Shown piece after piece: positions 23,470 through 26,212 of a DNA stretch of 26,212 nt (position 1 is its first letter; each line of letters opens with the position of its first letter). The position numbers and the translations under genes are program-made. This stretch comes from Candidatus Micrarchaeota archaeon (lineage in GTDB: Archaea > Micrarchaeota > Micrarchaeia > CAILAH01). Location of the stretch: positions 1 to 26,212 of the forward strand of contig JAOAKR010000002.1 of assembly GCA_026419815.1 (NCBI GenBank), read 5' to 3'. The notes under the pieces are model-generated. The model worked only from the letters and a program-made list of their open reading frames with translations, had not been told where the DNA came from and made no database searches.

Positions 23470-24798
23470 TCATTTTTTGAGCTTCCTGCTCGTGCACTTA
23501 AACCCTAACTTTCTGAGTGTGTCGCACTCGCGTGCGGCCAGCACCCCGTTCCTACATACAACCACATACCGCTTTGCCTTGTCAAGCGACCCGTAGTCAA
23601 TTGGGCCGTCATCAAGGCGGATTATAACATCATTATTGGAATTGCCGGTTGTTTTTGCACTCTCAGCGGCATTTGTAACTATGGATACATCAGTGCCTTC
23701 AACGTCCCCCCTTATTTTCTCATATTCCGCATCAACCTCCCTAACATCAGCACTCGTGGCGACACTTCCCTCTGAGATATTGCACAGCTCCCCCATAAGT
23801 ATTGAGTGCTCATAAGTGCCAATCCTCTTTGCCTCGCGTATGGTGTCTTCCTTTGTATACGCTATAAGCGGCCTCAGCACCAGGCACCCTACCCCATTCT
23901 CAATTGCAGCAAGGTTCCTTATGGTTTGCGTTGACACCTGGCCAACACTTTCCCCCGTTACAATTGCATCACAGCCGAGCTTTCTGCACAGCCGTGCAGC
24001 AAGCGCATAAAAGGTCCTCTTTAGGACTACCTGCCTCAACTGTGGCCTGACCTTCTCCCTTATCGCATCAACAATCTTTTTCCCGTCAGCACAGTAAAAT
24101 CCCAAATCACCGCCGAAGGCCCATTCACACGAAAGTTTCCTGTATGTCCCGTAAGCCAGCCCAAGCGTTTCCTCACCACCGAGGTTGACAAACAAGAATG
24201 CAGGGGTGCACCCCCTTCTCATCATCGCCCAGGCAGCAACAGGTGAGTCAATCCCTCCGGAAAACAGCACCACAACTTTGCCTTCTGAGCCGAGCGGCAG
24301 GCCGCCAGGCCCACCCTCCTTTTTTGTGTATGCATAAGCATGTTTGCCCCGCACCTCAACGAAGACCTCAACCTCATATTCCTTAAGGCTGACTTTACCG
24401 CCAGCATCGCACAATGCGGCGCCCACAACCCGTTGGATATCCATAGAAGTAAAGCCGTGCTTTCCCTCCCTGCTTGCAGTCACCCTGAACCGCTTTCCTG
24501 AAACACTTGCCCCGAACCTTTCACGCACCTTCTTTGCAATATCGTCAATATCTTTGAACTCAAAAGCATTTGCACGGGAAAAGTTTGCAATCCCAAACAC
24601 CTTTCCCAGCCGGCCGGCCAGGCATTCCGCCTGCTTTTTATCCTTAGGGACGACAACAAGTTTCCCGAACTCACCGGTAACCGCCGCATCTTTGCCGCAC
24701 GCGCGCCTTATGTTGCCGGCGAGTGTCCTGACCATTTGCGCGCGCACAGGCCTCCCCTTTATTGCAATCTCTGATGATGAGACGATGAACACATCCAT
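23470..24798 (-). CDS. thiI: tRNA 4-thiouridine synthase ThiI (THUMP + PP-loop + C-terminal rhodanese-like domain), 442 aa
   Basis: SEIAIKG, FGIANFS, THUMP FRVTASR, GPGGLPLGSEGK, LFSGGIDSPVAAW, GESVGQVSTQT, LRPL, C-terminal RYVVVCRNGV....LRKLGF. Start at ATG 24798. Confidence 0.92.
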   Translation of the reverse strand: MDVFIVSSSEIAIKGRPVRAQMVRTLAGNIRRACGKDAAVTGEFGKLVVVPKDKKQAECLAGRLGKVFGIANFSRANAFEFKDIDDIAKKVRERFGASVSGKRFRVTASREGKHGFTSMDIQRVVGAALCDAGGKVSLKEYEVEVFVEVRGKHAYAYTKKEGGPGGLPLGSEGKVVVLFSGGIDSPVAAWAMMRRGCTPAFLFVNLGGEETLGLAYGTYRKLSCEWAFGGDLGFYCADGKKIVDAIREKVRPQLRQVVLKRTFYALAARLCRKLGCDAIVTGESVGQVSTQTIRNLAAIENGVGCLVLRPLIAYTKEDTIREAKRIGTYEHSILMGELCNISEGSVATSADVREVDAEYEKIRGDVEGTDVSIVTNAAESAKTTGNSNNDVIIRLDDGPIDYGSLDKAKRYVVVCRNGVLAARECDTLRKLGFKCTSRKLKK

Positions 24799-24851
24799 GC
24801 TAAGACTGCTCACAGCAAACATAATAATTGTTATCTGTGCCAACTCTTCTG

Positions 24852-26212
24852 GTGTGCGGCATTGTGGTCGCCGAATCATCTGACCCTAAGCTGGGCGATT
24901 ATGAGCGGCTAGTTGCGCATAGGGGCACTTCAGGCAGGGGCGCATGTGCCGTTAGCGGGCTGCATTTTTTACACCATCTCCACTCAATAGTGGGCAATAA
25001 TGTCCTGCAGCCATTCAAGGGGAGGGGCATACTTGTTGCAAACTGCGAAATCTACAACTGGCAGTCACTCGGCATTAAATACGGGATTACTGCACGGAAC
25101 GATGCAGAGCTCCTGTTCAAGATTTTGGAATCCAGTGACGACCTGAGCGCATCACTTGCAGGCATAATAAGCGAGCTTGACGGCGATTTTGCCTGTGTAT
25201 ATTACAGGGACGGCGTGCTTTATGCCTTCCGCGATCCGCTGGGCGTAAACCCGCTCTTTTACTCGCTCCGCCCGCTCCTGTTCACATCTGAGCGCGCAAG
25301 CGATGCACAGCGTGAGCTTCACCCACGCACAATACTCACTTACAATACTAAGTCAGGCGAGCTGCTCACACAATACACAGATTTCTTTGCGCGCGCACCG
25401 CCTTCCCAAGAGATTGCCGAGCTCTTGGGCCGCGCAGTTGACAAGCGCATTCCAAACGCCAAGTCCGGCCTCCTGTTCTCAGGAGGTGTTGACTCTGCAT
25501 ATATTGCGCTGCGCCTGCACGAAAACGGGGAGGCACTGCGGCTTTACACTGCATATGTAGGCAGCGATTCGCAGGACGCCGCGCAAGCACGCAGGTTTGC
25601 AAATGACTACGACCTTGACTTGCACGAAGTTCCGATAAGCCTTGCCGAGGCGAAGCGTTCCCTAAGCGAAATCTGCCTTACTATACATTCATCCGACCCG
25701 GTGAAGGTAGGCATTGCGCTCCCGTTCCATTTTGCCGCAAAGGCGGCTTCCAGTGACGGGTGCAAAGTCCTGTTCTCTGGGCTTGGCGCGGACGACATAT
25801 TTGCGGGGTATGCCCGGTTCAAGGGCGGCGCAAGCTTGCGCGGGGAGCAGCTGAGCTCGCTGCGGTGCATCTATGAGCGTGACCTTTACAGGGACAATAC
25901 TACGTGTATGCATCACGGGATTGAGCTTCGTGTCCCTTATTTGGACCATTCCTTAGTGCTCGCGTCGCTGAATGCCCCTGAGCAGGATATAATAGACAAA
26001 AAGCCAATCCGCGCGCTCCTCAAGTCGCACTATAAGGCATCCGAGCAGTGCTACGCCCGCCCAAAGAAGGCAGCCCAATACGGCTCAAACTCAATGAAGG
26101 CCGTGCGCGCTCTCGCAAAAAAGACCGGTGCAAGTCCGAGCGTGCACTTATACTCGCTCTCAGGCATACGCAACCTCCGCCTTGGTGCGCTTTATACCGG
26201 CGGCAAGGACAG
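24852..26212 (+). CDS. asnB: Asparagine synthetase B-like protein (Ntn glutaminase + PP-loop synthetase) fused in frame to a second PP-loop domain (Dph6/diphthine-ammonia ligase-like); 3'-truncated
   Basis: Hand translation from GTG 24852, open to the window end: MCGIV, AHRG, NCEIYN, LDGDFA, RDPLGVNPLFY, LLFSGGVDS, SGLGADDIFAGY, ELRVPYLD, RPKKAAQYGS, then LGALYTGGKD(S) at 26181-26212. Confidence 0.85.
   Translation, partial: MCGIVVAESSDPKLGDYERLVAHRGTSGRGACAVSGLHFLHHLHSIVGNNVLQPFKGRGILVANCEIYNWQSLGIKYGITARNDAELLFKILESSDDLSASLAGIISELDGDFACVYYRDGVLYAFRDPLGVNPLFYSLRPLLFTSERASDAQRELHPRTILTYNTKSGELLTQYTDFFARAPPSQEIAELLGRAVDKRIPNAKSGLLFSGGVDSAYIALRLHENGEALRLYTAYVGSDSQDAAQARRFANDYDLDLHEVPISLAEAKRSLSEICLTIHSSDPVKVGIALPFHFAAKAASSDGCKVLFSGLGADDIFAGYARFKGGASLRGEQLSSLRCIYERDLYRDNTTCMHHGIELRVPYLDHSLVLASLNAPEQDIIDKKPIRALLKSHYKASEQCYARPKKAAQYGSNSMKAVRALAKKTGASPSVHLYSLSGIRNLRLGALYTGGKD

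What the first reader, a model, noticed from the sequence alone, without database searches (positions are those of the whole stretch)
24852..26212. AsnB fused to a Dph6-like domain: possible glutamine-dependent diphthamide synthase
Seen: after a complete AsnB (N-terminal Cys2, first PP-loop at 25467-25496, RPKKAAQYGS end motif) the frame continues without a stop into a second PP-loop start, LGALYTGGKDS, which resembles the N-terminus of diphthine-ammonia ligase (xxLxSGGKDS). The glutaminase motif is altered (NCEIYN for NGEIYN). Known: Dph6 amidates diphthine on EF-2 using free ammonia, and AsnB generates ammonia from glutamine. Inference: one glutaminase feeding two amidation sites, or an AsnB repurposed as ammonia donor for diphthamide. 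Only 11 residues of the second domain are visible.
Basis: partly seen in the sequence, partly recalled or inferred. Interest (0 to 1): 0.65.

Follow-up and report, generated by a model that had tools for sequence, protein, structure and literature searches.

The report
Known AsnB-like–Dph6 fusion enzyme
This tiny archaeon has one gene joining a glutamine-splitting, asparagine-synthetase-like module to Dph6, the enzyme that finishes the diphthamide modification of elongation factor 2. The fusion is real, but it is common and was described in 2012, so only the job of the asparagine-synthetase-like half is still open.

Summary
An ORF starting at GTG 24852 (Cys codon 24855-57) runs open to the contig end. 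It reads in frame from an AsnB-like module into the Dph6 PP-loop (LGALYTGGKD).

- **Rest of the gene:** the window is the whole contig. The rest of Dph6 (179 aa, TIGR03679 232.7 bits against a cut-off of 197.3) lies at the end of contig C58, across a gap of about 22 nt.
- **Relatives:** all seven same-family Micrarchaeia genomes carry one unbroken ORF of 629-664 aa with the same neighbouring genes.
- **Novelty:** none in kind. De Crécy-Lagard et al. (Biol Direct 2012; PMC3541065) described this AsnB-DUF71 fusion and proposed that glutamine supplies the ammonia. The protein database search scored 1880 hits, and the best 120 all carry the fused architecture. NCBI names them diphthine--ammonia ligase. 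This scan has reported the fusion in at least 37 other genomes.
- **"Complete AsnB" does not hold:** Glu348, the Thr-Thr-Arg aspartate motif and Arg49 are all replaced, family-wide. The module scores below NCBI's AsnB cut-offs. NCEIYN is a family signature, not a lesion.
- **Extra finding:** relatives that lack the glutaminase, both fused and stand-alone, occur only in genomes that have dph2. This hints that the middle PP-loop domain has its own role linked to diphthamide.

Interest is low.

The parts
24852..26212 (+). 5' 1,361 nt (453 codons plus 2 nt) of the tri-domain gene. It is cut by the contig end. The full gene is about 1.92 kb (about 640 aa) by comparison with the same-genus ortholog.
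24852..25350 (+). Class-II (Ntn) glutamine amidotransferase domain, short form. GTG start, then the Cys nucleophile at 24855-57. Arg30, Asn74, Glu76 and Asp98 equivalents are kept. The Arg49 equivalent is Leu.
   Evidence: Pfam GATase_7 residues 53-148; alignment with E. coli AsnB; invariant columns C2, R24, N64, E66, D84 in 60 fusions
25041..25058 (+). NCEIYN motif (Gly75 of E. coli AsnB replaced by Cys). This is a family-wide signature.
25410..26096 (+). Asn_synthase-like PP-loop (ATP pyrophosphatase) domain. ATP-site residues are kept (PP-loop, D351, K429 and K449 equivalents). Glu348 and the Thr-Thr-Arg aspartate motif are lost.
   Evidence: Pfam PF00733 2.6e-33; fold match to 1ct9 with TMt 0.75 for the ortholog model
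25467..25496 (+). PP-loop 1, GLLFSGGVDS
26058..26087 (+). RPKKAAQYGS end motif of the AsnB-like domain. It contains the Lys449 equivalent.
26088..26177 (+). Linker of about 30 residues, predicted as two short helices in the ortholog model.
26178..26212 (+). First 11 residues of the Dph6 domain with PP-loop 2 (RLGALYTGGKD plus 'ag'). After a gap of about 22 nt it continues on G000:C58:2839-2303 (minus strand) to the stop codon.

Best explanation
The window ends inside the single gene for a three-domain enzyme of a known, widespread archaeal (mostly DPANN) family. The domains are a class-II glutaminase, an asparagine-synthetase-like PP-loop domain, and Dph6 (diphthine--ammonia ligase).

**Shown**
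- The fusion is real and in frame.
- Its last 179 residues lie on contig C58.
- The C-terminal domain is an orthodox archaeal Dph6 with all signature residues. It is the only Dph6 found in these genomes.
- The N-terminal two domains have the AsnB fold and arrangement, but they lack the residues that bind and adenylate aspartate.

**Inferred**
- The Dph6 domain adenylates the carboxylate of diphthine on EF-2 and amidates it to diphthamide.
- The glutaminase domain has an invariant Cys1, Asn74, Glu76 and Asp98. It hydrolyses glutamine, or a close amide donor given Arg49->Leu, and delivers ammonia internally. I put this at roughly 50%.
- The middle PP-loop domain is not an asparagine synthetase. 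Its strictly conserved ATP site points to an ATP-dependent reaction of its own on an unknown acceptor, tied to the diphthamide pathway, rather than a passive linker.
For: - **In-frame read-through:** and one search show the ORF running from the AsnB-like module into the Dph6 PP-loop.
- **Rest of Dph6 on C58:** this rests. The gap is 22 nt and the gene order is identical (divergent ThiI upstream, convergent AlaRS downstream) in the same-genus genome.
- **Unbroken fusions:** seven of seven family genomes have them. The database search scored 1880 hits, and the best 120 all carry the three domains.
- **Dph6 signature:** S44, Y45, E78, Y103, Q104, A149, E183, E186 and E188 of PF0828 are conserved.
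- **Pathway context:** dph5 is present in this genome. dph2, and an EF-2 with the HRG target histidine, are present in congeners.
- **Active-site audit:**
- **Structure model of the ortholog:** pLDDT 93.2 and pTM 0.92. Residues 1 to about 440 match AsnB 1ct9 (TMt 0.75). The C-terminus matches PF0828 3rk1 (TMt 0.83, rmsd 1.2 Å).
- **Literature:** PMC3541065.
Against: - No enzyme of this architecture has been assayed, as far as the literature searches show.
- Arg49, which binds the glutamine carboxylate in E. coli AsnB (from my own knowledge of that enzyme's crystal structure), is Leu in all 110 sequences examined.
- Fused forms without any glutaminase exist (G025, G071, G166). So do stand-alone forms with Cys1->Ser. 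Ammonia supply therefore cannot be the only reason the AsnB-like module travels with Dph6.
- In G000 itself the join across the contig gap is inferred, not sequenced.
- dph2 and EF-2 were not found in this 61%-complete genome.
Confidence: 0.7

Rival explanations
1. The middle PP-loop domain is itself a dedicated, so far unrecognised enzyme of the diphthamide/EF-2 pathway. The glutaminase serves that domain through its cognate AsnB-type tunnel, and Dph6 uses free ammonia as stand-alone Dph6 does. The fusion co-localises two EF-2-directed activities.
For: - Glutaminase-less fusions nest inside the glutaminase-bearing ones, which means secondary loss.
- Stand-alone homologs of about 250-280 aa keep the PP-loop, the K at the Thr322 position and the KKAxQYGS motif. 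Some carry a dead (Cys->Ser) or vestigial glutaminase.
- The short or fused forms were found in 58 genomes of the 121-genome Micrarchaeia sample. Fifty-six of these have dph2, and none of the 39 dph2-negative genomes has one.
- In family f3 the stand-alone gene lies 3-6 kb from dph2. In G084 it lies 2.7 kb from dph6.
- Many polar residues of this domain are invariant across 60 fusions.
Against: - No second ATP-dependent step is known in diphthamide synthesis, and diphthine has a single carboxylate.
- Two large Dph6-positive families (f5, f9) mostly lack any AsnB-like gene, so it is not required for diphthamide.
- The phyletic pattern involves few independent events, because the dph-negative families may stem from one or a few losses.
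- The gene-neighbour evidence comes from one family plus one genome.
Confidence: 0.25
2. One reading: a complete, genuine asparagine synthetase B whose glutaminase feeds both asparagine synthesis and diphthine amidation.
For: All three domains are present, with Cys1 and PP-loop 1 intact. It is the only Asn_synthase-type domain in these genomes.
Against: - Glu348->Leu, Thr-Thr-Arg -> V-K-V-G and Lys376->Ser, in 8 of 8 family members and nearly all of the 102 distant fusions.
- It scores below the NCBIfam equivalog cut-offs: 182.2 against 267.1, and 133.3 against 499.
- E. coli AsnB sits on a branch of 2.5 changes per site from the whole family.
Confidence: 0.05
3. The AsnB-like synthetase domain is a non-catalytic scaffold or ammonia conduit that merely links the glutaminase to Dph6.
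For: - The aspartate-binding and adenylation residues are lost.
- The model predicts a rigid three-domain body with pTM 0.92.
Against: - PP-loop 1 (S210, D214, S215), the K405 (Lys449) and K383 (Lys429) equivalents, and many other polar residues are invariant in 60 fusions.
- The same residues persist in forms that have no glutaminase to connect.
Confidence: 0.1
4. Assembly artefact or two separate genes: the Dph6-like start at the contig end is not really continuous with the AsnB-like ORF.
For: The contig breaks exactly inside the gene, and the join to C58 is inferred.
Against: - The read-through from the AsnB-like end motif into the Dph6 PP-loop lies within contig C23, with no stop and no start codon.
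- Seven independently assembled relatives, and all of the best 120 database proteins, are continuous.
Confidence: 0.01

Closest known systems
AsnB (GAT-II + Asn_Synthase_B_C)-DUF71 fusion proteins of Methanohalophilus mahii, Methanosalsum zhilinae and 'Ca. Nanosalinarum sp. J07AB56' (de Crécy-Lagard et al., Biol Direct 2012, PMC3541065)
   Same: Same three-domain order and the same proposed logic, in which the glutaminase supplies NH3. NCBI annotates such proteins as diphthine--ammonia ligase.
   Different: - This Micrarchaeia family form is shorter (629-664 aa, against about 670-720 aa).
- Its Dph6 tail after GEGGE[YF]E is only 10-22 residues, against 35-45.
- It forms its own clade in both the middle-domain and the Dph6-domain trees.
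- I did not align it directly with the three named proteins.
Stand-alone archaeal Dph6 (PF0828, PDB 3RJZ/3RK0/3RK1; PH1257, PDB 2D13; NCBIfam TIGR03679)
   Same: - The C-terminal domain matches at 5e-53. Foldseek gives 47% identity and rmsd 1.2 Å.
- All Dph6 signature residues are kept, and the score is above the equivalog cut-off.
   Different: - It is fused behind about 440 extra residues.
- It lacks roughly the last 25 profile positions.
- The fused Dph6 domains are separated from the stand-alone Micrarchaeia Dph6 by a branch with 97% support.
Asparagine synthetase B (E. coli AsnB, PDB 1CT9; human ASNS, PDB 6GQ3)
   Same: Same two-domain fold and arrangement (TMt 0.75). The Cys1 nucleophile, Arg30, Asn74, Glu76, Asp98, the PP-loop, Asp351, Lys429 and Lys449 equivalents are kept.
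   Different: Arg49->Leu, Gly75->Cys, Glu348->Leu, Thr-Thr-Arg -> V-K-V-G and Lys376->Ser. It scores below the equivalog cut-offs and the domains are much shorter.
Beta-lactam synthetase and carbapenam synthetase (PDB 1JGT, 1Q15): AsnB homologs that kept the PP-loop chemistry for another acceptor, with a non-functional glutaminase domain (the last point is from my own knowledge)
   Same: - They are structural neighbours of the N-terminal two domains (Foldseek E about 1e-18).
- They are a precedent for an AsnB scaffold re-used on a non-aspartate substrate, and for a decayed glutaminase like the Cys->Ser stand-alone forms.
   Different: Here the glutaminase keeps its Cys nucleophile in the fused form. 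There is no evidence of lactam chemistry.
Eukaryotic Dph6 with two C-terminal RidA/YjgF-like domains
   Same: In both cases Dph6 is fused to a domain proposed to generate ammonia locally (PMC3541065).
   Different: The partner domain is unrelated, sits at the other end of the protein and works by a different chemistry.

Membership tests
Archaeal Dph6, diphthine--ammonia ligase (TIGR03679 / PF01902) | Score above the curated equivalog cut-off | tested here: met
   The genome's own C58 fragment scores 232.7 bits against 197.3. The same-genus full protein scores 259.5 bits.
Archaeal Dph6, diphthine--ammonia ligase (TIGR03679 / PF01902) | N-terminal PP-loop, SGGKDS type | tested here: met
   The window ends in YTGGKD(S) at 26193-26212, with Thr replacing the first Ser. 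G451, K452 and D453 are invariant in 60 fusions.
Archaeal Dph6, diphthine--ammonia ligase (TIGR03679 / PF01902) | Dph6-subfamily residues S44, Y45, E78, Y103, Q104, A149, E183, E186, E188 (PF0828 numbering, from PMC3541065) | tested here: met
   All are conserved in the alignment of the G001 ortholog to 3rjz. The same motifs (HSYMFHT, GEKERE, YSEYQR, VAAEGL, GEGGEYET) can be read in the C58 translation.
Archaeal Dph6, diphthine--ammonia ligase (TIGR03679 / PF01902) | Co-occurrence with dph2, dph5 and an EF-2 bearing the target His | tested here: inconclusive
   dph5 is present in G000 (C13:2850-3593). dph2 and EF-2 were not found in G000, which is 61% complete. Both are present in G001, G002 and G006, and G001 EF-2 has HEDPVHRGPAQ.
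Archaeal Dph6, diphthine--ammonia ligase (TIGR03679 / PF01902) | ATP-dependent amidation of diphthine on EF-2 | not testable with these tools
   This needs a biochemical assay.
Asparagine synthetase B, glutamine-hydrolysing (TIGR01536 / PRK09431) | Score above the curated equivalog cut-off | tested here: not met
   The window protein scores 182.2 against 267.1 for TIGR01536, and 133.3 against 499 for PRK09431.
Asparagine synthetase B, glutamine-hydrolysing (TIGR01536 / PRK09431) | N-terminal Cys nucleophile plus the Asn74/Gly75 oxyanion hole and the Arg49, Glu76, Asp98 glutamine contacts | tested here: inconclusive
   Cys1, Asn74, Glu76 and Asp98 are kept. Arg49->Leu in 110 of 110 sequences. 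Gly75->Cys in 102 of 110.
Asparagine synthetase B, glutamine-hydrolysing (TIGR01536 / PRK09431) | PP-loop SGGxDS and ATP/PPi-binding lysines (Lys429, Lys449) | tested here: met
   SGGVDS lies at 25479-25496. The K383 and K405 equivalents are invariant.
Asparagine synthetase B, glutamine-hydrolysing (TIGR01536 / PRK09431) | Residues for aspartate binding and beta-aspartyl-AMP formation: Glu348 and the Thr-Thr-x-Arg motif (DVTTIRAS in E. coli). Their roles are from my own knowledge of the AsnB literature. | tested here: not met
   Glu348->Leu. DVTTIRAS reads DPVKVGIA in the window protein. The same replacements occur throughout the family.
AsnB-DUF71 fusion family (de Crécy-Lagard 2012) | GAT-II, Asn_synthase PP-loop and DUF71/Dph6 domains in this order in one polypeptide | tested here: met
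   The first two domains, and the in-frame entry into the third, lie on C23. The full ORFs of G001-G007 have all three Pfam domains. In G000 the last 179 aa lie on C58 across an unsequenced gap of about 22 nt.

The most novel reading that the evidence does not exclude
The asparagine-synthetase-like PP-loop domain may be a distinct, uncharacterised ATP-dependent enzyme of the archaeal diphthamide/EF-2 modification system. It has lost the aspartate-binding residues but keeps an invariant ATP site and a new invariant Lys. On this reading Dph6 fusion is a Rosetta-stone clue rather than an ammonia-supply device.

Four observations fit this reading:
- The domain survives loss of the glutaminase at least twice.
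- It exists as a stand-alone protein of about 260 aa in many Micrarchaeia.
- It was seen only in genomes with dph2.
- It sits next to dph2 in one family.
Probability: 0.25. Interest if true: 0.55.

Novelty: new member of a known kind. Interest (0 to 1): 0.15.

Why it matters
For this window it matters little. It is a correctly recognised but already published and very common architecture, split by a contig break.

The open question is shared by the whole family and has stood since the 2012 reviewers' comments: what does the AsnB-like half do, and is diphthamide amidation glutamine-dependent in these archaea? A single enzyme assay would settle a 14-year-old prediction. It would also correct the many database entries that call the N-terminal part "asparagine synthase (glutamine-hydrolysing)".

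Tried and rejected
- **Extending the contig.** This is impossible, because the window is the whole of C23. The ends of C23 and C58 share no overlap, so the join rests on homology and gene order.
- **Looking for EF-2 and dph2 in G000.** Neither was found in this 61%-complete genome. Congeners were used instead.
- **Long open frame (407 aa) around Dph6 in G070.** It is only an upstream open frame before an ordinary 216-aa stand-alone Dph6.
- **In-frame stops flagged inside dph2 matches of the family.** They are the genes' true stop codons at the edge of the match, so the genes are intact.
- **A glutaminase remnant upstream of the GAT-less G025 gene.** None was found. An unrelated gene ends there.
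- **Literature search for a biochemical test of glutamine-dependent Dph6.** Nothing was found beyond the 2012 prediction.
- **Structure model.** It gave confidence values and fold matches only. No coordinates were available, so no tunnel or inter-site distance could be measured.
- **Weak Pfam hits** (QueC, DUF7411, tRNA_Me_trans). These are generic PP-loop cross-matches below their cut-offs.

Full report
**Observation.** The ORF begins at GTG 24852, immediately followed by a Cys codon. That is the MCGI-type start needed by an Ntn glutaminase. It is open to base 26210, and two more bases reach the contig end.
- Pfam finds GATase_7 (residues 53-148) and Asn_synthase (from residue 187).
- After a 30-residue linker comes RLGALYTGGKD at 26178-26210, in frame. 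No ATG, GTG or TTG precedes it that could start a separate gene.

**The rest of the gene.** The window is the entire contig C23 of a 567-kb, 68-contig, 61%-complete genome.
- A search of that genome for PF01902 finds one strong match. It is cut off by the end of contig C58 and starts at profile position 23.
- Its 179-aa translation (LQRNYDVKCL...CPLFKR*) scores 232.7 bits on NCBIfam Dph6_archaeal, against a cut-off of 197.3.
- Against the same-genus gene, the last base of C23 corresponds to nt 1361 and the first base of C58rc to nt 1384. About 22 nt, encoding SAYALYLM, are therefore missing.
- Gene order agrees: ThiI is divergent upstream and AlaRS convergent downstream, as in the relatives.
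- In a tree of Dph6 domains, the C58 piece pairs with the same-genus fused domain (85% identity, support 98).

**Is the fusion real and how common is it?**
- All seven same-family genomes with a Dph6 match have one unbroken ORF of 629-664 aa. It starts MCGI and carries GATase_7, Asn_synthase and Diphthami_syn_2.
- The protein database search with the same-genus protein scored 1880 hits. The best 120 all show the same three domains. They come from Micrarchaeia, Woesearchaeota and Nanoarchaeota, and NCBI names them "diphthine--ammonia ligase". The closest hits place this genome in Ca. Micrarchaeia.
- In a 301-genome sample of the phylum, 234 have Dph6. Long fused frames occur only in this family (f1), in f13 and in f22. 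Elsewhere Dph6 stands alone at about 214-300 aa. That tally includes two unpublished genomes, G053 and G206. Both are ordinary stand-alone cases and no specific claim rests on them.

**What is known.** De Crécy-Lagard et al. (Biol Direct 7:32, 2012; PMC3541065) described exactly this AsnB(GAT-II + Asn_Synthase_B_C)-DUF71 fusion.
- They found it in Methanohalophilus mahii, Methanosalsum zhilinae and 'Ca. Nanosalinarum'.
- They proposed that the glutaminase provides NH3 to both PP-loop domains.
- A reviewer asked which domain uses the ammonia and what the Asn-synthetase-like domain catalyses.
- I found no later biochemical test.
- This scan has already reported the same fusion in at least 37 other genomes, with the same verdict. 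It has also reported a glutaminase-less version.

**Is the N-terminal half a complete AsnB? No.** I aligned the window protein, its seven relatives and 102 distant fusions with E. coli AsnB.
- Glutaminase domain: Cys1, Arg30, Asn74, Glu76 and Asp98 are conserved. Arg49 is Leu in all 110 sequences. Gly75 is Cys in 102 of them, so NCEIYN is a family signature and not damage.
- Synthetase domain, residues kept: the PP-loop, Asp351, Tyr357, Asp384, Arg387, Lys429 and Lys449.
- Synthetase domain, residues lost: Glu348 is Leu, Lys376 is Ser or Gly, and DVTTIRAS reads D(S/P)VKVG(V/I)A. That removes the Thr-Thr-Arg motif and introduces an invariant Lys.
- From my own knowledge of the AsnB literature, Glu348 and that motif are required for beta-aspartyl-AMP formation.
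- Consistently, the window protein scores 182.2 bits on TIGR01536 (cut-off 267.1) and 133.3 on PRK09431 (cut-off 499).
- It is also the only Asn_synthase-type domain in these genomes.

**The Dph6 half is orthodox.** All nine Dph6-subfamily residues listed in the 2012 paper are conserved. dph5 is present in this genome. dph2, and an EF-2 with the HEDPVHRGPAQ target site, are present in congeners.

**Structure.** An AlphaFold2 model of the same-genus full-length protein was built on a 60-sequence alignment. It has mean pLDDT 93.2 and pTM 0.92, which suggests one rigid three-domain body.
- Foldseek aligns residues 1 to about 440 to E. coli AsnB (TMt 0.75).
- It aligns the C-terminus to PF0828 (TMt 0.83, rmsd 1.2 Å).
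- No solved structure has all three domains.

**Beyond the finding: the AsnB-like PP-loop domain has a life of its own.**
- G025 and G071 (f13) and G166 (f22) carry fusions with no glutaminase at all. In the middle-domain tree they nest within glutaminase-bearing fusions, which means secondary loss.
- Many Micrarchaeia with a stand-alone Dph6 also have a stand-alone homolog of about 250-280 aa. It keeps the PP-loop, the Lys at the Thr322 position, GSGAEELF and RPKKAMQYGSG. Some of these proteins retain a dead glutaminase (MSSIFG, Cys->Ser) or only a vestige of it. They form a clade beside the fused forms, and E. coli AsnB lies far away.
- In one 121-genome sample these short or fused forms occur in 58 genomes. 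Fifty-six of those have dph2. One of the other two has dph6 and the other is 89% complete. None of the 39 dph2-negative genomes has such a form; those show only partial matches to ordinary AsnB-type genes of about 600-700 aa.
- In family f3 the stand-alone gene lies 3-6 kb from dph2, and in G084 it lies 2.7 kb from dph6.
- These patterns are not phylogenetically independent. Two large Dph6-positive families (f5, f9) mostly lack the gene, so the link is suggestive only.

**Mechanism.**
- I am most confident (over 0.9) that this is the known fusion and that its C-terminal domain is the organism's diphthine--ammonia ligase.
- Glutamine-derived ammonia reaching Dph6 is plausible, at about 0.5. The glutaminase is under strong constraint, but Arg49 is lost and glutaminase-less forms work without it.
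- The middle domain is very unlikely to make asparagine. Its conserved ATP site argues against a passive scaffold, and its acceptor is unknown.

**Verdict.** It is a new member of a known kind and of low interest. The remaining value lies in the still untested role of the AsnB-like module.

Noticed in passing
Micrarchaeia genome sample; families f2, f4, f7, f11 and several single-genome families: Whole families of Micrarchaeia, with genomes 88-97% complete, show neither dph2 nor dph6: f2 0/6, f4 0/9, f7 0/10 and f11 0/5 for dph2, and likewise for dph6. These DPANN lineages may lack diphthamide altogether. dph5 and the EF-2 target His were not checked there.
   Followed up: partly
L035:696-2027:+ (G013), L036:742-1959:+ (G157), L031:461-1291:+ (G033), L033:578-1357:+ (G030) and others: These are stand-alone homologs of the fusion's middle PP-loop domain. 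The G013 and G157 proteins begin MSSIFG, with the nucleophile Cys replaced by Ser. The G033 protein keeps only a vestige of about 25 residues of the glutaminase. Most of the others are about 250-280 aa with no glutaminase at all.
   Followed up: partly
L026:2197-3588:- (G025), L030:2161-3552:+ (G071), L028:1265-2884:- (G166): These are glutaminase-less Asn_synthase-like-Dph6 fusions in two other Micrarchaeia families. Their Dph6 PP-loop reads STGKDS instead of SGGKDS. G166 has an extra low-complexity N-terminal stretch of about 75 residues.
   Followed up: partly
G030:C1 (105.8 and 109.9 kb), G049:C1, G035:C8, G072:C25, G010:C2; L034 (G084:C3): In family f3 the stand-alone AsnB-like PP-loop gene lies 3-6 kb from dph2. 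In G084 it lies 2.7 kb upstream of the stand-alone dph6. The genes in between were not examined.
   Followed up: no
window 23470-24879 (-): A ThiI-type tRNA 4-thiouridine synthase gene lies divergent from the fusion gene. Its longest ORF (ATG 24879) overlaps the fusion gene's start by 28 nt. Relatives start near MD..., so the real start is probably the internal ATG near 24798. That would leave a divergent promoter region of about 55 nt.
   Followed up: no
window 26212 / G000:C58:2839: The assembly breaks inside a conserved single-copy gene, and only about 22 nt are missing between the two contig ends. The cause (coverage, strain variation) is unknown.
   Followed up: partly
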